A stretch of DNA of 64,000 nucleotides, taken from assembly GCA_000146465.1 (NCBI GenBank), contig CP001942.1; one strand, written 5' to 3'. Made by a program: the position numbers and the translations under genes. Of this stretch, positions 22,764 to 49,638 are shown in pieces (positions within the stretch are counted from its first letter, which is position 1; every line of letters begins with the position of its first letter). The notes beneath the pieces were generated by a model, which saw nothing but the letters and a program-made list of their open reading frames with translations, was not told the origin of the DNA and ran no database searches.

Positions 22764-24038
22764 CTAAAGATGCTTAAGACTTATCAACTTCGGTGAGCTA
22801 CCAGATATACAGATGCACAAGTATGACCCACTTGTAGAAAATAAAAGTTTGAAGACACTTCCGTCCACCTTGTATCTGTAAACTTCTCTGCATCTGGAAT
22901 CACTAAGTATTACCTCTCCGTCCAAAGAGCCACTTGCAATCAGATATGAGGAGCAGTCAACTGCTAAAACTTTGTCTTTGTGTTCTAACCTGCAGACAGG
23001 TGTTGACTTCTCAATGTCCCACAACTTGACAAGCCTATCAGATCCACATGTCACAATCTTGTCATTTGTCCATTTATGGTCATTGACACCACCCTCGTGG
23101 GCATTTATCTTACTTCCCTCCATAGACCCGACATCCCACACCCCAAAGGTACCGTCATGGGATGATGTTGATAGCATCGACTCATTATACTCCATTCCAC
23201 TGATTTGGCCTTTGTGGGTGCCAATTCGAGACACCTTCGACTCGCTAACATCCACAAAAGAAACAGAAAAGTCACTTAGGCTGCATCCAACTTCATTTTC
23301 CCCCATCCATACAACATCCTCTACCTCACATTCTGAGACATTCACCTCTGTAATTCCATTGTTCATCATAACAATGCGTCCATCTCTTCCAGAAGAAAGA
23401 ATTCCTCTTCCTCGTTGCCTTACTCTTGTGACGCTCTTGCTATGGCACGCATAGCTTCTTGTCCTTCCGCTTGACACATTAACAGTTATTACTTCTCCAC
23501 CTTCGTTCCCAACAACTAGCTCATCGTCGTTCCAGGATAGCGATGTCAGATTCTTCATCTCTCTTTTCCATCGAAGACCTTCACTCCCAATCCCAAGAAC
23601 TTCCCCAGCTGCAGTGTAAATCCCCAGGGAGTCTCTATTCCAGCAGGAAAGGAGCCCAACCCCCATCCTGTCAAGACTTATTTCTTCGACATCAACCGAC
23701 ATGGTTCCCTTTTCTTCAGAGATATGATCTTCTCTGGAACTTGGAGGTTCTTTCTTCAGAAAGCCACATACATGCTCCTCCGATAGACAGAATCTGGTTT
23801 CACAGGCAACCACTGAATTTCCTTGAAGATGCTTAGTTCCATACAGATACTGCAGTCCTTTTCCAACAAGAGATATCAGACTATGGGGTAAAGGTTTGTC
23901 GCTGGGGGCTGCCTCGTTCTTAAATGTGAAAAGAGTGTATATGTATCCTTCATCCTCAAGATACTTGTAAACTAGCTGGTTTATCTCGTCCCTCGACATT
24001 TCGATCATTGTTCTTAAACTTCTATGGGCTGGCATCAA
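22764..24038 (-). CDS. LisH + WD40 repeat protein (TBL1/Sif2-like)
   Basis: An N-terminal LisH motif ('EINQLVYKYLEDEGYIYTLFTF') precedes a C-terminal WD40 propeller with several 'GS.D..VKLWD'-type repeats. Confidence 0.55.
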   Translation of the reverse strand: MMPAHRSLRTMIEMSRDEINQLVYKYLEDEGYIYTLFTFKNEAAPSDKPLPHSLISLVGKGLQYLYGTKHLQGNSVVACETRFCLSEEHVCGFLKKEPPSSREDHISEEKGTMSVDVEEISLDRMGVGLLSCWNRDSLGIYTAAGEVLGIGSEGLRWKREMKNLTSLSWNDDELVVGNEGGEVITVNVSSGRTRSYACHSKSVTRVRQRGRGILSSGRDGRIVMMNNGITEVNVSECEVEDVVWMGENEVGCSLSDFSVSFVDVSESKVSRIGTHKGQISGMEYNESMLSTSSHDGTFGVWDVGSMEGSKINAHEGGVNDHKWTNDKIVTCGSDRLVKLWDIEKSTPVCRLEHKDKVLAVDCSSYLIASGSLDGEVILSDSRCREVYRYKVDGSVFKLLFSTSGSYLCICISGSSPKLISLKHL

Positions 24039-27000
24039 GTGTTATCATTTAAGCGTTGTAATGGACTCAAATGGTTACCCCGGAGAATGCTGATAGGCAA
24101 GTTGGAGGAGTTTCCATCGCTCAAAAACCCTTCTGGACAGGAAGGAAATCCACTCAGACGCAAGAAGAGGAAGCTTATTCTGTATTCCCTGTACATCTTC
24201 TCTGTAATTGCAATGTGCCGTCTGACCAAGACATTCTATTGGCTTTACACTTTAGACCTTAGTAAGTTGCAACTCAACAAAGTGGTTTATGACACAAAGA
24301 CATGGAAGAAAATAGAGGTGGGAATTTCGCTTGAGAACTCGGAGTCCCCGATTCATGTGAAGTTTACAGATGTATATGCCAATCTATTCAGTATATCACC
24401 AGATGGAAGCGAGAATCCTTTACTTTCACTGAGGATTCCAATGGCAAACATTGCAAAGCACAAGAATATCCTGTTTAATGGAGACATATACATAGAAAAC
24501 TTCAATAGGAGGAATGTGATTGAATCAAGATTTTCGGTTCACTTTGGAATCAGAATGGATGCACGGATGTACCCCCGGTTGTGCTTTATAAGATTTCCTT
24601 TTCGTAACTCGCAATCCTTCTCCCTGGGGAGCTCTGTCTCAAGTCCTGGGAAAGAGGTTGTGCTTAAACAGGTGTATGCAGAATCGAGAGATGGAATGCT
24701 TCTGCTAGAGTGTGAGATAGACAACAAAAAATTCAATGTCCCGAAGTTTGTTGCGATCCGGAGCCGTGGGGTTGTGATTAACTTTGGAGGGAAGGGCAAC
24801 CCAAGGATTGTAAACGTCGGACCTGTGGAGGTGGATGGATCCATATTCCTGACTCCCTTGATTATAAGGATCAGCATCACCCCTGAATGGGGAGAAGAGC
24901 TTAAGGAAAATCTCATCAAGGGACTTAATGGAGAAGAGGTAAGCATCAAGGTGAAGGGCTTCTACTTTAAGGGAGACGACGAAAACCCGTCGGAAAAATG
25001 GATTGGCCTCGGACTTAGTATTGGGTTCAATACCAGAAGCTTTCGAAGCCATGACATAGCGTTTAAGAACAGGAAGAAGAAATGCCCTATTCTTAAGAAG
25101 CCATTGGTAATTCTAAAGAACGGCATATTGGAAGACCTTCCAGGGTTCCGTGCATTTATTCGAAAGGAAATCTTTCCGTTCATCGAGAGCCACAGCATCC
25201 TAGTGATGCGCTCGAACATGTTCTTCGGGGACATCTATTTCAACAAATTCCTGATTGGAAGGATCAAAATCTTCATTGATAACGGAGACGAGTATTTTGT
25301 GGTGACATGCATGCTTTCTGAATTTGATTCTGAGGAGCTTCTGAAGGCCTTCAGATCGTCGAATGAAAAGGAAGTGAAGATTGTCTTTGGTTCTTCCAAC
25401 GGCCTGATGGTTCTTGTAAATGACATTGAGCTTGTGTGGAATCTATCTAAAGGACTGTTGTATCTTTTTTACAAGAACCACGAGTACAACATTTTGTCCT
25501 CCCAAAAGGATTTGAATGTAATTGATGTCTTACATACTGTTTCAAGTGGTTTATCATCCCTCCGGATCGATACCCTGGCCAGGTTTTCTCCAGGGAGGAA
25601 GAGCTCCTTTACAACCTTCCAACTGAAGCTTGTTGGATTCGACTTTTCCTTTTCCAATGCGGGAATAAATGCGAAATTCTCTGTGGAGGACACCAACATA
25701 ATATACCAGAACAGTGAAGAGCCGTTGAACAGAAGGATCTTTGGGGAGTTTTTGATGCATACAAACATCAGCGACTCACTGAAAAGCATACTTGAGAAGT
25801 TAGAACACAACGGAGACTCTTCGGAGAAGGAAGAGAAGGAGGATGGCAGAAGACTCCTCCTCAAATACAACAAGGACAAGCCTTGCAAAATAAGAAAGCA
25901 TTTTTTCTCTGTGCATCTCCTGGAGGATGAAACACCCCAGTACTCTGGAGTAGTCATACGAAATGTTATTAGAATACCATGCGACACAAGGTTCAATCTG
26001 ACAGCCTACACAAAGAACCTAAACCTGAAGAGGGCCAAGCCAGTTGTTGTAAACTTTGGGTATACCAAGATCTGCTATTTGTTGATGAAAGGTGGATCAC
26101 GGATAGAGCTTGGGAATGGGATAGACTTTTCGGTGTCTTTTTCGAACCTACATGACCTCGTAGCGTTAGGAGCGAATAATGTAGCTGTTGTTTGTGATGA
26201 GGGGGATTATGTAGCAAGAGCAATCAAGGACATACTTGCTTGGATCACAAGAAGAGACGATGAGGATGGTGTTAAAAAGCAGATATGTCCTAAAGACATG
26301 GTGTTTAAGTCTAAGTTAAAGAGGTTGAAGGACTGGGCTCTGAGCACCGGGCGTGTATATGAAGGAATCACAGAGATATCCATTCCCATTGAGATGTTCA
26401 ATTCTACAAACATTGAATTCGATATTCCAAACGTTGGATTTATGGTCTTGGAAGAGGAGAACAAGAGCACACCCTATAGGGGGTTTGGGTCCATAGAAAT
26501 CTTGCCCAGCATCCAATACATGTTTGAGGGCCATATATACAAATCTTTTGGAGTGCTATACAGATTTTCCGAGATTTCCTCAAACAATACTTTGTTAAAC
26601 ATGCATCTTATTGTCGAGGATAAGATATACGAATCGGAGATAATAAATTACGACTCATACAGAAGAGTGATGGGGGATGTAAGGGATGAGATGTTCAAAA
26701 AGGATGACAAGAAGGAAAAGAAGGGAATGTCTGTTGAGATCTCCAGCTCAACCAACTTTAGGATACAGAGGATTGGGAAGACTATCTCTTCCGAGGGAGA
26801 CACCTGGTTTGTGAAGATTGTTAACAATAATCTGAGAGACTTCTTGTTTTTGGGGATTCCTAATCTTCTTTTGAAGTCTTTCTATGGGGTTATACCGTCA
26901 GGAATAAGGTTTGAGATTGACATGGACAAAAATGCCATGGGGCTTTACATAGGGTCACGAGAAACAAATCCTTGGGAAATCCAAGGAGAGAGGAAGGAAG

Positions 27001-27794
27001 ACGGATTCTATGACATTCTCGACGTTAGACTCTCCAGAATCTTGTTCTCCGACATGATCAAATACAATTTCGAGGTCGTGGAGAAGTATTCTAATGGGAA
27101 GAAAATCACAATAGTGAAAAGTCCATACCACAACTCTTTCGAAGATACATCAGAGTATAAGGATTGGAACCTCAGCAGCAAGTTTGAATTAGAAGGAACT
27201 ATCCCAAACCAGGGGGGCGTATGGATTACCAAGTTAAAGTTCAGTATACCAATTGCATTTGCTTTTGCAAGTCTCTTCCCCGGAAATGGTCCCTATTCTC
27301 CCAAGATGAATGCCTTAGGAATGTACCTGGAGTTTTTCCTTCCGTTTGACCTCTTTATTAAATCTTCGGAGCTCCCGGCCGAGATTGTGCTTGTTTCAAA
27401 ATCCAATGACAGGGAGCTCTGTAGACTTGGGTTTGGGATGGCAGCAAAGAGGCCAAACGTGTTTTTTATGAGTATCTCTGTCCCGCCAAAGTCGTACATA
27501 CTAAGTCTTAAAAATGTTTTAGAGCGCTATAGAATTAGGAGGAAGTATAAGAATGACATCAACCTTCCTAAGATCCAGCAGGATGTATCGATATCAGTCT
27601 CTGTTAATGGAGTTGAGGTCTTCAAGGTCCTCAATAGAATATTAATAGATGCTTATGAATTTAGCGGTTTCATACACACATTGGCTTTCCTCGAAAAACG
27701 CCTGGTAAAGCTCACAGGCTTCATGGCAAAGAGGATTCAAGTAGGGCTTCAAGAAAAGAAAAAGAAACAACCTCCAGCATTGGAGGGCCATTAG
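24024..27794 (+). CDS. Large 1256-aa hypothetical protein (beta-rich; function unknown)
   Basis: The ORF is uninterrupted over 3.7 kb. A basic N-terminus ('RRKKRK') is followed by a hydrophobic anchor-like segment ('LILYSLYIFSVIAMC'), a long non-repetitive body rich in F/I/V/N/S/K/E, and a basic C-terminus ('QEKKKKQ'). The true start may be an internal Met. Confidence 0.5.
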   Translation: MGWHQVLSFKRCNGLKWLPRRMLIGKLEEFPSLKNPSGQEGNPLRRKKRKLILYSLYIFSVIAMCRLTKTFYWLYTLDLSKLQLNKVVYDTKTWKKIEVGISLENSESPIHVKFTDVYANLFSISPDGSENPLLSLRIPMANIAKHKNILFNGDIYIENFNRRNVIESRFSVHFGIRMDARMYPRLCFIRFPFRNSQSFSLGSSVSSPGKEVVLKQVYAESRDGMLLLECEIDNKKFNVPKFVAIRSRGVVINFGGKGNPRIVNVGPVEVDGSIFLTPLIIRISITPEWGEELKENLIKGLNGEEVSIKVKGFYFKGDDENPSEKWIGLGLSIGFNTRSFRSHDIAFKNRKKKCPILKKPLVILKNGILEDLPGFRAFIRKEIFPFIESHSILVMRSNMFFGDIYFNKFLIGRIKIFIDNGDEYFVVTCMLSEFDSEELLKAFRSSNEKEVKIVFGSSNGLMVLVNDIELVWNLSKGLLYLFYKNHEYNILSSQKDLNVIDVLHTVSSGLSSLRIDTLARFSPGRKSSFTTFQLKLVGFDFSFSNAGINAKFSVEDTNIIYQNSEEPLNRRIFGEFLMHTNISDSLKSILEKLEHNGDSSEKEEKEDGRRLLLKYNKDKPCKIRKHFFSVHLLEDETPQYSGVVIRNVIRIPCDTRFNLTAYTKNLNLKRAKPVVVNFGYTKICYLLMKGGSRIELGNGIDFSVSFSNLHDLVALGANNVAVVCDEGDYVARAIKDILAWITRRDDEDGVKKQICPKDMVFKSKLKRLKDWALSTGRVYEGITEISIPIEMFNSTNIEFDIPNVGFMVLEEENKSTPYRGFGSIEILPSIQYMFEGHIYKSFGVLYRFSEISSNNTLLNMHLIVEDKIYESEIINYDSYRRVMGDVRDEMFKKDDKKEKKGMSVEISSSTNFRIQRIGKTISSEGDTWFVKIVNNNLRDFLFLGIPNLLLKSFYGVIPSGIRFEIDMDKNAMGLYIGSRETNPWEIQGERKEDGFYDILDVRLSRILFSDMIKYNFEVVEKYSNGKKITIVKSPYHNSFEDTSEYKDWNLSSKFELEGTIPNQGGVWITKLKFSIPIAFAFASLFPGNGPYSPKMNALGMYLEFFLPFDLFIKSSELPAEIVLVSKSNDRELCRLGFGMAAKRPNVFFMSISVPPKSYILSLKNVLERYRIRRKYKNDINLPKIQQDVSISVSVNGVEVFKVLNRILIDAYEFSGFIHTLAFLEKRLVKLTGFMAKRIQVGLQEKKKKQPPALEGH

Positions 27795-27880: not shown

Positions 27881-28450
27881 ATGAAATCAAATGTGATTTT
27901 CAATGTTCCAAACTCTGTTGGATATCTCAGAATTATTCTCCTAGTCCTGTCTGTCTTTGCACCTGGCAGAGGATTTGTTGTCTTGTATAGTCTTTCGTCC
28001 CTCCTTGACATCTTTGATGGGCACCTTGCAAGAATGTTTGGCCAATGCACATTGCTAGGATCATGCCTAGACATGATAACCGATCGGACCTCTACCGTCG
28101 TGATCTCCCTTCACATAATCCACAAGAGGCCTGAATTCCTCCAGCTCCTAGTTTTGTACATAGTACTCGATCTTGTTTCTCATTTCATATACTTCCACAT
28201 GTCGGCGCTGTCTGGGAAACACCACAAAGGAACAGACAATAAAATCCTGAGGACCTACTACGACAGGCGGGTCCTGGGGCCTATATGTCTACTGAGCGAG
28301 GTGTTCTTTATGTATGTCTACTGCTTCTCCAACAGAGGAATCCTTTTCTATACTCTCGCAGGAATTGTTGCAACCAAAACAATATTCCATCTTGCCCAGC
28401 TTTTTGAAGCAATTTCAGCCATAAGCAACATTCATTCCAATGGGAAGTGA
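27881..28450 (+). CDS. PIS1: CDP-diacylglycerol--inositol 3-phosphatidyltransferase (PI synthase)
   Basis: The CDP-alcohol phosphatidyltransferase motif 'DIFDGHLARMFGQCTLLGSCLDMITDRTS' matches the D-G-x2-A-R-x8-G-x3-D-x3-D pattern. The protein is small and multi-pass. Confidence 0.7.
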   Translation: MKSNVIFNVPNSVGYLRIILLVLSVFAPGRGFVVLYSLSSLLDIFDGHLARMFGQCTLLGSCLDMITDRTSTVVISLHIIHKRPEFLQLLVLYIVLDLVSHFIYFHMSALSGKHHKGTDNKILRTYYDRRVLGPICLLSEVFFMYVYCFSNRGILFYTLAGIVATKTIFHLAQLFEAISAISNIHSNGK

Positions 28451-29156: not shown

Positions 29157-29954
29157 TTAAGACCTGTTATTATCTGCCACAAAATACAGGATCTGTGCAC
29201 TGACTAGCTTGTAGAAGGGATGTCCAGGAGTAAAGTCACAGAAAAGCGAAATCCCTGAACAAATCCACTCTGTAGAGGAAAACGACAGTGAATATGCCAC
29301 AAAGGATATCCAATACGATTTTTCGACGGGAACCAGCGGCGAGCAGCATATGAGGGCCTTTGTGAAGCACGGCAGCTTTCCCATAAGCAACGGCGTCCGG
29401 AAGTCGATTCGAAATTCTGGAAGCACCATCTTCCTGCATCTCACAATTGCCCTGTATTCGTTAGCCCTGTCTGTAAATGAGGCTTCTCTTAAGAGCCTTG
29501 CAACCTTCTTGTATGCTTGGCCGTAGTCTTCGCTTTCTATTGGAGGAGGAGACAGATGGTATATATTGAAAAAATGGAAGACTGCAAGGCACATGCTCAC
29601 TGTGCGATTGTTTAGTGAGTACAGCGAAAGCAACATTCCCATGGATTCCATAATCCCAGCTATTTCTAGGTTTCCCCTGTGGAACTTGTCTATGCAAAGA
29701 TTGCTTACAGAAACATATGTTGCAGCTACTGTAAATCCATAGCACAGGAAGTAGATGTTTGGAAACAGCAGAGAAAGAATAAACAAGGAGTTCGATATGT
29801 ACATCTTTCTTTTTGTGCCTGGGACAAGAAGTGCAACAAGAGAGGAAGGAATGGACAAAGCAAATAGATATGGGCCTGGAAAATGGCTTGCTGCCAGAAA
29901 AAGAGGTATAGCATAAAGCACAGCCTGCCTTCTTAGACTTCCTGGATTTTCCAT
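29157..29954 (-). CDS. Hypothetical multi-pass membrane protein
   Basis: The 265-aa ORF has 5-6 hydrophobic segments and no confident family. Confidence 0.4.
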   Translation of the reverse strand: MENPGSLRRQAVLYAIPLFLAASHFPGPYLFALSIPSSLVALLVPGTKRKMYISNSLFILSLLFPNIYFLCYGFTVAATYVSVSNLCIDKFHRGNLEIAGIMESMGMLLSLYSLNNRTVSMCLAVFHFFNIYHLSPPPIESEDYGQAYKKVARLLREASFTDRANEYRAIVRCRKMVLPEFRIDFRTPLLMGKLPCFTKALICCSPLVPVEKSYWISFVAYSLSFSSTEWICSGISLFCDFTPGHPFYKLVSAQILYFVADNNRS

Positions 29955-46629: not shown

Positions 46630-49600
46630 ATGTTCATCAAGGAGATAGTTCTCGATGGGTTTAAATGCTATGAGGAAAAAGTGGTGGTAGCCAATCTCGA
46701 CAGATCGTTCAATGCAGTAACTGGGATGAATGGATCTGGGAAGTCCAATGTACTTGACGGGATCCTGTTTGCTCTTGGGCTTGAAGGTACAAAGGCGCTG
46801 CGTGCGAACAACATCAAGGAGCTTATCAATAGCAACAGAAAGGAATGTAAGGTAAGTGTTGTGATGTGTAACAAAGAAAAGGCGAGGAGTCCACCTGGGT
46901 ACGAACATTATGATGAGATTTGTGTTTCCCGGGCGATTGATAGTGAGGGAAGAACAAAATGCTATATAAATAATCACCTTTGTACCTTTTCGACGCTGAG
47001 CAAGCTGTGCGGGTCGATGGGCCTCACGTCCCGGGGATCTTTTTCTTCTGTTGTGATGCAAGGGCACATAACAAAAGTTCTGAGTATGAAGAGCTCTGAT
47101 CTCCGGGGGCTTATTGAAGAGACAGCAGGAACAAAGTCCTATGAGAAGGAGAAAGAGAAGGCAATGAGTATGATTGAGAAGAAAGAAGAGAAACTTAGAG
47201 AGGCCCAGGAGATGCTGAAGAGAAGGATATCGCCGTTTTACGACAAGCTTCGGGAGGAAAGAGCAAGGTTTCTGGAGACCCGAGACCTGAAGGAAAGGAA
47301 GAGGATTCTGTCGCAAAGGGAACAGGAAGTTAAAGAGATCCTGGTTGTGGATGAGGTTCGGGAAGAGATAGATGTTCTAGACAGGAGCTTAAGAAGTTAT
47401 ATTGAAGAGATGAAGAGCTTGGAACTGATTGAGAAAAGAATAGAGGAGATTTCGGGAGCAAAGGAGGAAGTGGATATTGTGTGGATTAAGGCATCTATTG
47501 ATGGAGAAAAGTTGAAATTGGATGAGATGAAGGGCAAAGGATTGGAAGAAAGACTTTTAAAGAAGAAGGAAGAAGTAAGGATGATGGAAGGATTGAGGCC
47601 AGGCCTAGAGCTTGCTAGACTTGTTGAGAGGGAAAGATTGCTTGCGGAGAGCTTAAGAAGAATGGACACTGGGGAAAACGATGTCCTGAGAAAAGCTGAA
47701 GAACTTACATCTCTTAAATTACAGAGGTCCCGAATTGAATTTGAGTTTAACTCAATCTCAGAGGGAGTTTTCTCTCAGGAGAGATTAGACGAGATTGAGA
47801 GGATTAAAGTCTCTGAAGAGGAGATTGAGGAGCTTCGGAAGAAGGCACAAGTACTAAGGTCTAAAATCAACTATCCTCTTGTTGAAGGGGTTTTCGGGAC
47901 TGTTGAGGAGAATGTTGAGGTATGTGATGAAAGATATCTTGAGGCGGTGTATACTGTAATGGGGGCCAGGGCCAAGTATGTTATAACATCGGACGAAAAA
48001 GTTGGGGGCCTTCTACTGAGCACTGCAGAGAGGAGTGTGAGCGTAATACCACTTTCGAAGATAAGGGTGTTTTGCCTCTCGGCAAGTGTTTTGAAAGAGA
48101 TAGAATCGAGAGGAGGTGTGAGTATGGTCAACCTTTTGAGATTTGACAACAGTGTTCGAAAGGCCATTGAGTTTGTATTTGGTAACTTCTTTATGTTTGA
48201 AAGCAAGGAGATGGCTAGAAAAGTCTGTTTTGAGCAGAAGGTGATGTGTGTAACCATTGATGGAACTGTATATGATCCAAAAGGAACACTTAGTGGAGGA
48301 AAGACGAGCTTCAAGATTGGTACTGTACGAAGAAAGGATGTGGAGGAGATAGAAAGGCTTGTTGAGTCTCTGGAGTTGAATAGAAGGAAGTTTGAGGCAC
48401 TGAAGGAGGAATATGCAAGGTTATTGAGGGGGAAGGTCTTGGATGAGAGAAGGTTAAAGCTTAAAAAGGAGATGGGGTCTCTGGATACACGGATCTCCGT
48501 TTTGTCTGATCTGTGCGAGGATGGAATGAACATCAGAGAGGAATTAAGGGTTGTACGAGAAAAGATAGTTGAAGGAATGAAGGAGAAGAGCAAAGCGGAT
48601 ATTATTGAAGAAAAGAAGAAGAAGTTAGAGTCCCAAATAAGAGAAATGGAGTTGGAGATCAAACAGAACCAAGAGGAGATGAGAAGGTGTGAAGAAAGGA
48701 TCTTGTCCTACGAAAAGATGCTTGGGAAACATGATGTTGAGAATGACAACAGAAGGATGAGCGAACGAGAGATGGATGGGCTTGAGTCCAAGCAAAGACA
48801 CTTGATTAGAAGTACTGGAAAGCTACAAAACAAGATTGCAAAGATTTATAATGATGTTGAGAGGAAGCTTAGACAAACTCTTAATGGTGAGGAGGAACAC
48901 ATATATGAAGACAGAGTACTTGATGAAGAGATCTATAAGACTGCCGAATCCATTGGAGTTAATCCTAGATATCTTTTAATCCGAAAGCAAAACATGGCAG
49001 AGAAAGAACGACTTGAATTGGTGGAGGAGCTGGAGATGATTAGAAGTGAAATGAAGAGGCTAAGCAGCATGAAGAAAAGTACGATGGACCCGGCGAACTT
49101 TGATCTTCTGGAGCGGAACGAACTGATGATCGAGGATCTAAAGGTGAAGATCGACAAGCTGGAAAAAGACAGGCTTGCGATTATACAAAGCATCTCAAGA
49201 TTTGATGATCTAGGATATAAGGAGAATCTGAAAGCGTTCCACCACATCAATGGAAGATTGGGAAGGTTTCTTAGATACTTCATACCAGAGTCGGATGCAA
49301 GGATCGATGAAAACAATGGAGAGTATTCCTTAAGAGTCAAGATAGGAAACTGGAAGGAGTCTTTGGGAGAGCTTAGCGGGGGGCAGAGATCTCTTGTAGC
49401 TCTTTGTCTAATATTTTCCATGCTTACATACAGACCATCCTCATTTTATATTTTCGACGAGATTGATTCTGCATTGGACCTAAGCTATACACAAGGAATT
49501 GGAGAGATCATAAGGAACGAGTTTAGCAATGCCCAGTTCATAGTGGTATCCCTAAAGAATGGGATGTTTGACAATGCAAATAACATATTCAAGGTGTATC

Positions 49601-49638
49601 TACAGGATGGAAAGTCGAGGATATGTAGAATAAAGTGA
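46630..49638 (+). CDS. SMC2: Structural maintenance of chromosomes protein, SMC2-like (condensin)
   Basis: The N-terminus 'IKEIVLDGFKCY...AVTGMNGSGKSNVLDGILFALG' and 'VMQGHITKVLSMK' match SMC2. A long coiled coil and hinge follow, and the C-terminal 'LSGGQRSLVALCLIFSM...FYIFDEIDSALD' supplies the signature and Walker B. Confidence 0.8.
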   Translation: MFIKEIVLDGFKCYEEKVVVANLDRSFNAVTGMNGSGKSNVLDGILFALGLEGTKALRANNIKELINSNRKECKVSVVMCNKEKARSPPGYEHYDEICVSRAIDSEGRTKCYINNHLCTFSTLSKLCGSMGLTSRGSFSSVVMQGHITKVLSMKSSDLRGLIEETAGTKSYEKEKEKAMSMIEKKEEKLREAQEMLKRRISPFYDKLREERARFLETRDLKERKRILSQREQEVKEILVVDEVREEIDVLDRSLRSYIEEMKSLELIEKRIEEISGAKEEVDIVWIKASIDGEKLKLDEMKGKGLEERLLKKKEEVRMMEGLRPGLELARLVERERLLAESLRRMDTGENDVLRKAEELTSLKLQRSRIEFEFNSISEGVFSQERLDEIERIKVSEEEIEELRKKAQVLRSKINYPLVEGVFGTVEENVEVCDERYLEAVYTVMGARAKYVITSDEKVGGLLLSTAERSVSVIPLSKIRVFCLSASVLKEIESRGGVSMVNLLRFDNSVRKAIEFVFGNFFMFESKEMARKVCFEQKVMCVTIDGTVYDPKGTLSGGKTSFKIGTVRRKDVEEIERLVESLELNRRKFEALKEEYARLLRGKVLDERRLKLKKEMGSLDTRISVLSDLCEDGMNIREELRVVREKIVEGMKEKSKADIIEEKKKKLESQIREMELEIKQNQEEMRRCEERILSYEKMLGKHDVENDNRRMSEREMDGLESKQRHLIRSTGKLQNKIAKIYNDVERKLRQTLNGEEEHIYEDRVLDEEIYKTAESIGVNPRYLLIRKQNMAEKERLELVEELEMIRSEMKRLSSMKKSTMDPANFDLLERNELMIEDLKVKIDKLEKDRLAIIQSISRFDDLGYKENLKAFHHINGRLGRFLRYFIPESDARIDENNGEYSLRVKIGNWKESLGELSGGQRSLVALCLIFSMLTYRPSSFYIFDEIDSALDLSYTQGIGEIIRNEFSNAQFIVVSLKNGMFDNANNIFKVYLQDGKSRICRIK

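What the first reader, a model, noticed from the sequence alone, without database searches (positions are those of the whole stretch)
24024..27794. Uncharacterised 1256-aa ORF with basic termini and an N-terminal hydrophobic anchor
It is the largest gene in the window, 3.7 kb without a stop, in a genome where every nucleotide seems to be used. Its N-terminus is basic ('RRKKRK') and runs into a hydrophobic segment, and the C-terminus is also basic ('QEKKKKQ'). The body is long, non-repetitive, mixed-charge and rich in F/I/V/N, which suggests a beta-rich fold. I could not match it to any family by eye. One hypothesis is a structural spore or polar-tube component. From memory, Encephalitozoon PTP3 is reported at about this length with basic termini, but I cannot verify the number. 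The other hypothesis is a membrane-anchored bridge-like lipid-transfer protein (repeating beta-groove, Fmp27/Csf1-like). Either would be notable.
Basis: partly seen in the sequence, partly recalled or inferred. Interest (0 to 1): 0.65.

Follow-up and report, generated by a model that had tools for sequence, protein, structure and literature searches.

The report
Membrane-anchored chain of beta-sandwich domains
The largest gene in this Encephalitozoon intestinalis window encodes an unstudied, microsporidia-only membrane protein whose long body is predicted to be a string of small beta-sandwich domains of the LEA-2 type; it is neither polar tube protein 3 nor a bridge-like lipid-transfer protein.

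Summary
The ORF is real, but the true start is most likely 24087, giving 1235 aa, not 24024 (1256 aa). It is E. intestinalis Eint_010900, the orthologue of E. cuniculi ECU01_0990. Orthologues of about 1180-1370 aa occur in Encephalitozoon, Ordospora, Nosema and Vairimorpha, and nothing outside microsporidia was found. All are annotated as hypothetical, and I found no paper naming them.

Every member has a short tail ending in a basic cluster, then one transmembrane helix with a buried, near-invariant Arg, then a beta-rich body. The charge distribution predicts that the body lies outside the cytosol (type II).

An AlphaFold model of residues 30-870 (18-sequence alignment, pLDDT 76.5) shows about six consecutive beta-sandwich domains. 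[quoted passage not shown] Plant LEA14 and the TMEM106B luminal domain also rank in the top 16. [quoted passage not shown]

PTP3 is excluded: it is Eint_111330 on chromosome 11 and is acidic. The repeating-beta-groove (BLTP) fold is not supported.

No sequence-level link to LEA-2 could be shown, and the function is inferred only. The closest analogues are the fungal Tag1/DUF3712 multi-LEA-2 proteins.

The parts
24024..24086 (+). In-frame upstream extension (21 codons) of the ORF; most likely not translated, and part of a 51-78 bp divergent intergenic/5' region
   Evidence: All orthologues start at MLIGKLEEF = 24087. The minus-strand LisH/WD40 gene has an ATG at 24035 that overlaps this stretch.
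24087..24173 (+). N-terminal tail, residues 1-29. Carries the conserved motif G-[KR]-LEEFPSLK-x-PS (Encephalitozoon/Ordospora clade) and ends in the universal basic cluster RRKKR[KR]. Predicted cytosolic.
   Evidence: Alignments A1/A2/A6. Net charge is +4 to +7 in the 15 residues before the TM and about 0 after it in 14 of the 15 aligned sequences; the fifteenth, P0014, is N-terminally truncated and lacks the region. The tail is 90 % identical to E. cuniculi.
24174..24251 (+). Single transmembrane helix (signal anchor), residues 30-55, with a near-invariant Arg (R45) in the middle of the hydrophobic stretch
   Evidence: It is the strongest hydrophobic segment of the protein. It is present in all full-length members. 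It is helical in both AF2 models. R45 is nearly invariant.
24258..24632 (+). Domain 1, residues 58-182. LEA-2-like beta-sandwich: b1 61-69, b2 75-86, invariant S87-P88 turn, b3 91-103, b4 109-122, b5 127-139, helix 141-149, b6 153-165, b7 172-180. Contains the invariant R164-x-C166 (YPRLCF motif). The most conserved globular part.
   Evidence: DSSP of model m3f4e3a6b4e67. Invariant columns. 86 % identity to E. cuniculi against 40-58 % for distal domains. The LEA-2 definition is taken from Levine 2021.
24663..25028 (+). Domain 2, residues ~193-314: beta-sandwich with the pattern strands - helix (266-280) - two strands
   Evidence: AF2 model, block pLDDT 75-90.
25056..25442 (+). Domain 3, residues ~324-452: beta-sandwich with helix 415-424 followed by two strands
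   Evidence: AF2 model, block pLDDT mostly 79-91.
25455..25922 (+). Domain 4, residues ~457-612: beta-sandwich with helix 565-574. Includes a disordered acidic loop (~574-587) that is an insertion hot-spot in relatives.
   Evidence: AF2 model. Insertions in P0006 and P0014 at this loop.
25950..26252 (+). Domain 5, residues ~622-722: beta-sandwich followed by two helices
   Evidence: AF2 model.
26301..26693 (+). Domain 6, residues ~739-869: beta-sandwich ending in helix 855-869
   Evidence: AF2 model.
26694..27650 (+). C-terminal third, residues 870-1188. Beta-rich, probably two or three more sandwich domains, but not confidently modelled. The loop at ~870-900 is an insertion hot-spot.
   Evidence: Only the low-confidence full-length model covers it (pLDDT < 50). 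Alignment.
27651..27761 (+). C-terminal amphipathic, basic helix, residues ~1189-1225 (…FIHTLAFLEKRLVKLTGFMAKRIQVGLQEKKKK)
   Evidence: Predicted as a long helix. Maximal hydrophobic moment in the last 70 residues is 0.51-0.74 across the five Encephalitozoon-type sequences and 0.66 in the Ordospora representative; there is no such helix in P0007 or P0013.
27792..27794 (+). Stop codon

Best explanation
The gene (CDS 24087..27794, Eint_010900, orthologue of ECU01_0990) encodes a single-pass type II membrane protein found only in microsporidia.

Architecture. A 29-residue basic tail is predicted to stay in the cytosol. One transmembrane helix with a buried Arg anchors the protein. The remaining ~1180 residues are predicted to lie outside the cytosol, either in the lumen of an endomembrane compartment or on the parasite surface. 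There they form a rod of roughly eight or nine consecutive beta-sandwich domains of the LEA-2 type, capped in the Encephalitozoon and Ordospora members by an amphipathic basic helix (other members vary; absent in P0007 and P0013). This is the same building plan as fungal Tag1/DUF3712 multi-LEA-2 proteins and archaeal tandem LEA-2 proteins.

Inferred mechanism (not shown). The conserved tail, TM and domain 1 form the functional core at the membrane, probably pairing through the buried Arg with a partner or with itself. The LEA-2-like array binds or passes hydrophobic molecules (lipids), or acts as a spacer of fixed length (rough estimate ~30 nm). The C-terminal amphipathic helix touches a facing membrane.

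Status of each step. Shown: the gene, the family, the TM and the beta-sandwich array. Supported but not proven: LEA-2 fold class and type II topology. Purely inferred: lipid handling and location.
For: - Real, conserved gene. Eight close orthologues were found. A HMMER scan of 1.84 billion representatives found 17 hits, and every hit that carries a name is microsporidian: Ordospora pajunii, Nosema granulosis, N. bombycis, Vairimorpha bombi and V. necatrix (the rest are unnamed Logan/JGI assemblies). Synteny is conserved.
- Topology. There is one TM. Charge is +4 to +7 before it and ~0 after it in 14 of the 15 aligned sequences; the fifteenth is N-terminally truncated.
- Fold. The AF2 model of residues 30-870 with an 18-sequence alignment has mean pLDDT 76.5 and pTM 0.64. 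Foldseek against PDB returns multi-domain Ig-like beta-sandwich chains: integrin legs, IgE, C5 MG domains, PapD/FimC chaperones and FXIII barrels.
- Strand order. [quoted passage not shown] An invariant S-P turn follows strand 2, where LEA-2 has its N-p-N turn. These match Levine's definition.
- Context. 3BUT itself comes from a type II protein with tandem LEA-2 domains. Fungal DUF3712 proteins carry up to 15 gapless LEA-2 domains behind a short tail and one TM. A basic cluster at the cytosolic end of the TM is a shared LEA-2 feature.
Against: - No sequence-level link to LEA-2. Pfam LEA_2, DUF3712, TMEM106 and Vac7 models never hit, even with 70 domain-sized pieces at E <= 10.
- Profile searches of the PDB gave nothing at E <= 10.
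- hhalign of each domain against LEA14/1YYC and TMEM106B gave probabilities <= 1.1 %, no better than reversed-sequence controls.
- The output does not say which domain matched 3BUT.
- The C-terminal 365 residues are not confidently modelled.
- No internal repeat signal links the domains to each other.
- Topology is predicted from charge only.
- No localisation, expression or lipid-binding data exist; I found no paper naming any orthologue.
Confidence: 0.5

Rival explanations
1. It is a generic Ig-like/adhesin-type ectodomain. The protein sits in the parasite plasma membrane and its chain of beta-sandwiches acts as a structural spacer or adhesin, for example linking the plasma membrane to the endospore or spore wall, or contacting the parasitophorous-vacuole or host membranes. 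It has no relationship to LEA-2 and no lipid function.
For: Foldseek hits are dominated by Ig-like arrays of adhesion and immune proteins and pilus chaperones. No sequence similarity to LEA-2 was found. Predicted type II topology would expose the body at the surface.
Confidence: 0.22
2. It is the missing microsporidian pore-membrane protein, an analogue of fungal Pom152 or Nup210. A short pore-side tail and a TM anchor a ~1200-aa array of beta-sandwiches that forms the luminal ring of the nuclear pore.
For: Size and plan resemble Pom152 (1337 aa per my own knowledge, with an N-terminal TM region and luminal Ig-like repeats). Human NUP210 appears at Foldseek rank 8. Neither Pom152 nor Pom34 could be found in E. 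cuniculi, where only seven Nups were detected (PMC2951903), so the slot is open.
Confidence: 0.08
3. It is an ER-anchored bridge-like lipid-transfer protein of the repeating-beta-groove superfamily (a reduced Fmp27/Hobbit or Csf1/Tweek).
For: It has an N-terminal TM, a long beta-rich body and a C-terminal amphipathic helix.
Confidence: 0.04
4. It is polar tube protein 3 or a PTP3-like polar-tube scaffold.
For: Only the coincidence of length (1256 aa from the spurious ATG) and the basic termini.
Against: EiPTP3 is Eint_111330 on chromosome 11, with pI 5.3 and rich in Glu. This gene is Eint_010900 on chromosome 1 with pI 9.2. The true length is 1235 aa. It has a signal-anchor TM rather than the cleavable signal peptide I recall for PTP3. 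VNE6903_025 is absent from the held V. necatrix polar-tube mass-spectrometry tables.
Confidence: 0.01

Closest known systems
Fungal multi-LEA-2 proteins: S. cerevisiae Tag1 (YLR173W) and DUF3712 (PF12505) proteins such as U. maydis UM15053
   Same: Short unstructured cytosolic N-tail, a single TM with type II orientation, then LEA-2-type beta-sandwiches concatenated without linkers (3 in Tag1, up to 15 in UM15053, lengths 240 to over 4000 aa) (Levine 2021). Microsporidia are fungal relatives.
   Different: No detectable sequence or profile similarity. There are about 8-9 domains plus a C-terminal amphipathic helix. A conserved Arg lies inside the TM. Tag1 is vacuolar, whereas the location here is unknown.
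Archaeal tandem LEA-2 proteins (PDB 3BUT, Af_0446)
   Different: Only 4 % identity. The archaeal proteins have two domains (~310 aa), against ~1235 aa here.
TMEM106B / Vac7 (single LEA-2 domain type II proteins of lysosome and vacuole)
   Different: They carry a single LEA-2 domain and long cytosolic regions. hhalign probability is 0.4 %. The small-xxx-small TM dimerisation motifs described for TMEM106B and Vac7 were not examined here.
Pom152 / Nup210 luminal Ig-like arrays of the nuclear pore
   Same: Membrane-anchored arrays of beta-sandwich domains, about 1200-1800 aa, in a lumen.
Bridge-like lipid-transfer proteins (VPS13, ATG2, Fmp27/Hobbit, Csf1/Tweek; bacterial TamB/AsmA)
   Same: N-terminal membrane anchor, a long beta-rich rod and a C-terminal amphipathic helix. 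A role as a conduit between two membranes is possible.
   Different: The fold is different: discrete sandwiches rather than a continuous repeating beta-groove. There are no structural or Pfam hits. The predicted orientation is opposite to the eukaryotic ER-anchored members.

Membership tests
LEA-2 superfamily (LEA_2 PF03168 / DUF3712 / TMEM106 / Vac7 / Tag1) | [quoted passage not shown] | tested here: met
   Domain 1 DSSP: b1 61-69, b2 75-86, b3 91-103, b4 109-122, b5 127-139, helix 141-149, b6 153-165, b7 172-180. The same 'strands - helix - two strands' order recurs in domains 2-4, read from the DSSP string only.
LEA-2 superfamily | Closest solved structure is a LEA-2 domain (3BUT) | tested here: met
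LEA-2 superfamily | N-p-N (Asx-turn) motif after strand 2 | tested here: inconclusive
   The turn after strand 2 reads N84-S-E-S87-P88. S87 and P88 are invariant in all 15 sequences, while N84 is conserved only in the Encephalitozoon-like clade. By eye it resembles plant LEA14 'NPYSHSIP', but it is not the canonical motif and was not tested statistically.
LEA-2 superfamily | Significant sequence or profile similarity to LEA_2 / DUF3712 / TMEM106B | tested here: not met
   No Pfam hit for whole proteins or for 70 domain-sized pieces. PDB profile searches were empty. hhalign against LEA14/1YYC/TMEM106B gave <= 1.1 %, equal to reversed controls. The reference profiles were very thin (1-2 sequences), so this test is weak.
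LEA-2 superfamily | Type II membrane topology with a positive cluster at the cytosolic end of the TM | tested here: met
   RRKKR[KR] lies immediately before the TM. Net charge is +4 to +7 before and ~0 after in the 14 aligned sequences that include the region. This compares with RLRPRRTK in TMEM106B. Topology is predicted, not measured.
LEA-2 superfamily | Conserved hydrophobic lipid-binding groove or cavity between strands 1 and 7 | not testable with these tools
Repeating-beta-groove BLTPs (VPS13/ATG2/Hobbit/Tweek) | Continuous beta-groove (taco) fold with structural similarity to VPS13/ATG2/BLTP/TamB | tested here: not met
Repeating-beta-groove BLTPs | Chorein_N / Fmp27 / Apt1 / Csf1 sequence signatures | tested here: not met
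   No Pfam hit in any of 15 family members.
Polar tube protein 3 (PTP3) | Orthology to ECU11_1440 / Eint_111330; acidic protein with a cleavable signal peptide | tested here: not met
   It is a different locus (chromosome 1 against chromosome 11) with pI 9.2 against 5.3. No homologue found is named PTP3.
Polar tube protein 3 (PTP3) | Presence in polar-tube preparations | tested here: inconclusive
   VNE6903_025 is absent from the held V. necatrix polar-tube mass-spectrometry tables. EHEL_010870 is absent from the small E. hellem supplements held. These files may be incomplete.
Pom152 / Nup210 | Pom152/Nup210 Ig-like repeat similarity | tested here: not met
Pom152 / Nup210 | Nuclear-envelope / pore localisation | not testable with these tools
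   No localisation data exist.

The most novel reading that the evidence does not exclude
The protein is an extracytosolic lipid conduit or tether built from tandem LEA-2 domains. It is anchored by its TM in one membrane and reaches a facing membrane with its C-terminal amphipathic helix. The anchoring membrane could be the parasite plasma membrane or the polaroplast/ER. The facing membrane could be the parasitophorous-vacuole or host membrane, or the opposite leaflet of a narrow lumen. That would make it a bridge-type lipid-transfer or scavenging device with a fold different from the VPS13/RBG class, in organisms that depend on host lipids.
Probability: 0.12. Interest if true: 0.8.

Novelty: new variant of a known kind. 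Interest (0 to 1): 0.45.

Why it matters
This is the largest gene in the region. It is conserved in length, architecture and synteny across the human-infecting Encephalitozoon species and the insect-infecting Nosema/Vairimorpha group, yet it carries no annotation and I found no literature on it.

Assigning it a fold class (type II, tandem LEA-2-like sandwiches) gives the first testable handle on it. The topology, location and lipid binding can all be checked directly.

If the LEA-2 link is real, it extends the Tag1/DUF3712/TMEM106B superfamily to microsporidia. It would also offer a compact model for asking what concatenated LEA-2 domains do, which is still unknown even in yeast.

If the protein lies on the parasite surface, its very conserved membrane-proximal module would be a candidate pan-Encephalitozoon antigen or target.

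Tried and rejected
- Pfam on the whole protein, on all 8 close orthologues, on 8 distant members and on 70 domain-sized pieces found nothing above noise.
- PDB sequence and profile searches found nothing.
- Two further word-indexed homologue searches with profiles A1 and A6 added only one sequence. The third was effectively wasted.
- The first representative-library job failed because the profile exceeded 1200 positions. I trimmed it and re-ran it.
- The first AF2 run (residues 30-1229, 8 sequences) gave pLDDT 38.8 and was not used for fold comparison.
- The afdb50 fold library was unavailable, so fungal DUF3712/Tag1 AlphaFold models could not be compared.
- Internal-repeat detection by hhalign, with arbitrary and then model-based boundaries, found no signal.
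- hhalign against LEA14/1YYC/TMEM106B found no signal above reversed controls. I had recalled these sequences from memory, and they were confirmed identical to the PDB chains.
- Literature searches for every locus tag gave zero papers. Searches for BLTP/RBG in microsporidia gave nothing relevant.
- A paralogue search in the window found none.
- Rejected: a fused or artefactual ORF, because orthologues have the same length; PTP3; and RBG-BLTP.
Full report
OBSERVATION. The window is Encephalitozoon intestinalis chromosome 1. The protein is 100 % identical over its 1235 residues to P7C65_01s1g00860, and the same cluster holds Eint_010900. An open frame runs 24024..27794 on the plus strand, 1256 codons from the first ATG, and it is the longest ORF in the window.

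The basic stretch RRKKRK, the hydrophobic segment that follows it and the basic C-terminus QEKKKKQ are all present. Composition is Ile/Leu/Phe/Asn/Val-rich and pI is 9.2.

The start needs correcting. ATG 24024 lies within the 5' end of the divergently transcribed LisH/WD40 gene, whose ATG is at 24035 on the minus strand. Every orthologue begins at MLIGKLEEFPSLK, which corresponds to 24087. The CDS is therefore 24087..27794, 1235 aa.

IS IT A REAL GENE, AND HOW WIDE IS THE FAMILY? Orthologues of the same length exist in several species:
- E. cuniculi: ECU01_0990 / Q8SWK2, 56 % identity
- E. hellem: EHEL_010870
- E. romaleae: EROM_010790
- Four unnamed assemblies: 28-53 % identity

In two of the distant ones the neighbourhood is the same as here: aldo-keto reductase | this gene | CDP-alcohol phosphatidyltransferase | E2 enzyme.

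A HMMER profile scan of 1.84 billion representative proteins found only 17 hits at E < 1e-3, none identifiable as non-microsporidian. The named ones are:
- Ordospora pajunii: cluster representative, E 3e-187
- Nosema granulosis NGRA_0291: 1e-30
- Vairimorpha bombi: 1e-25
- V. necatrix VNE69_03025: 4e-18, named 'Membrane protein' by UniRef
- N. bombycis: a fragment

I found no paper that mentions any of these locus tags. No paralogue lies in the window. Conservation is steeply graded. The tail, TM and first domain are 81-90 % identical between E. intestinalis and E. cuniculi, while domains 3 to 6 and most of the C-terminal third are 40-58 %; domain 2 (72 %) and the C-terminal helix (69 %) lie between.

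SEQUENCE-LEVEL ANNOTATION. Nothing was found. Pfam gave no hit for the protein, for 15 relatives or for 70 domain-sized fragments. PDB sequence and profile searches were empty. No internal repeats were detected.

TOPOLOGY. There is one strongly hydrophobic segment, residues 30-55, present in every full-length member. The 15 residues before it carry a net charge of +4 to +7 and those after it carry ~0. By the positive-inside rule, which is established knowledge, the N-tail is cytosolic and the ~1180-residue body is luminal or extracellular (type II). An Arg (R45) in the middle of the helix is nearly invariant.

STRUCTURE. A first AlphaFold2 run with eight close sequences failed (pLDDT 38.8). 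After adding the Nosema, Vairimorpha and Ordospora relatives, a model of residues 30-870 from 18 sequences reached mean pLDDT 76.5 and pTM 0.64. After the TM helix it is 51 % strand and 14 % helix. It parses into about six consecutive beta-sandwich domains.

Foldseek against the PDB returned chains of Ig-like sandwiches: integrin alpha-V legs, IgE, complement C5, mastigoneme, PapD/FimC/Caf1M chaperones and factor XIII/transglutaminase barrels, with NUP210 only at probability 0.23. No repeating-beta-groove protein appears among the 50 rows shown.

- Ranks 3 and 4: the lipid-binding sandwiches PDE6delta and UNC119

[quoted passage not shown] It notes that 3BUT comes from a type II protein with tandem LEA-2 domains. 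It also notes that fungal DUF3712/Tag1 proteins have a short tail, one TM and 3 to 15 gapless LEA-2 domains (bioRxiv 10.1101/2021.03.12.435176).

Domain 1 here has exactly that strand and helix order: b1-b5, helix 141-149, b6, b7. It also has an invariant S87-P88 turn after strand 2. The 'strands - helix - two strands' pattern recurs in domains 2-4.

PTP3 is excluded. E. intestinalis PTP3 is Eint_111330 on chromosome 11, 1256 aa, pI 5.3 and Glu-rich (PMC10468886). The equal length comes from the spurious upstream ATG. The V. necatrix orthologue is not in the held polar-tube mass-spectrometry tables.

The Fmp27/Csf1-type BLTP idea is not supported, for three reasons. The fold is a string of discrete sandwiches. 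No RBG structure or Pfam signature matches. The predicted orientation puts the body outside the cytosol.

MOST LIKELY MECHANISM. The architecture is supported by the model; the function is inferred only. The protein is a type II membrane protein. Its conserved tail, TM and domain 1 form a membrane-proximal functional core. Its tandem LEA-2-like domains form a rod outside the cytosol. That rod either handles hydrophobic ligands, as proposed for LEA-2 domains, or sets a fixed distance to a facing membrane contacted by the C-terminal helix. I put the architecture at about 0.8, LEA-2 homology at about 0.5 and a lipid function at about 0.2-0.25.

Rivals are a plain Ig-like spacer or adhesin at the parasite surface (0.22) and a Pom152/Nup210-like luminal pore protein (0.08). 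The second is attractive because no Pom152 was found in E. cuniculi (PMC2951903), but it is not supported structurally.

NOVELTY AND VERDICT. The family is unannotated, and I found no literature on it. At fold level it looks like a very divergent microsporidian version of the known type II tandem LEA-2 plan (Tag1/DUF3712), hence 'new variant of a known kind'. It is a worthwhile but not spectacular finding. It corrects the gene start, removes two tempting mislabels and gives a concrete, testable structural hypothesis.

Noticed in passing
window 24174-24251 (residue R45 = 24219-24221): A nearly invariant arginine sits in the middle of the single transmembrane helix in all family members, from Encephalitozoon to Vairimorpha. 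This suggests pairing with a partner TM, or oligomerisation, rather than a passive anchor.
   Followed up: partly
window 24009-24086: The divergent promoter region between the LisH/WD40 gene (minus strand, ATG at 24035 or 24008) and this gene (ATG 24087) is only about 51-78 bp. The ORF-finder's first ATG (24024) falls inside it.
   Followed up: partly
window 27881-28450 (+); also L001 8799-9353 and L003 7990-8562: A 189-aa CDP-alcohol phosphatidyltransferase (a phospholipid-synthesis enzyme family) lies 86 bp downstream on the same strand. This adjacency is kept in relatives only 28-30 % identical. It is probably just microsporidian synteny, but it is a lipid-synthesis neighbour.
   Followed up: partly
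window 29157-29954 (-): A 265-aa ORF, hydrophobic by eye and likely multi-pass, has no Pfam hit. It is conserved in position in L001 (262 aa) and L003 (261 aa), where it also has no Pfam hit.
   Followed up: no
window 24582-24584 (C166) and motif YPRLCF, residues 162-167: A single cysteine and the preceding arginine (R164) are invariant across all 15 aligned family members. They lie at the strand 6/7 region of domain 1. The cysteine is a possible intermolecular disulphide or functional site.
   Followed up: no
window 46630-49638 (+): The second-largest ORF of the window (1002 aa) was not examined.
   Followed up: no
residues ~574-587 and ~870-900 (window ~25806-25847 and ~26694-26786): Two acidic or lysine-rich loops are insertion hot-spots. 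Relatives P0006, P0014 and P0007 carry insertions of tens of residues, and in P0007 more than 100 in total, exactly there. This marks flexible inter-domain or surface loops.
   Followed up: partly
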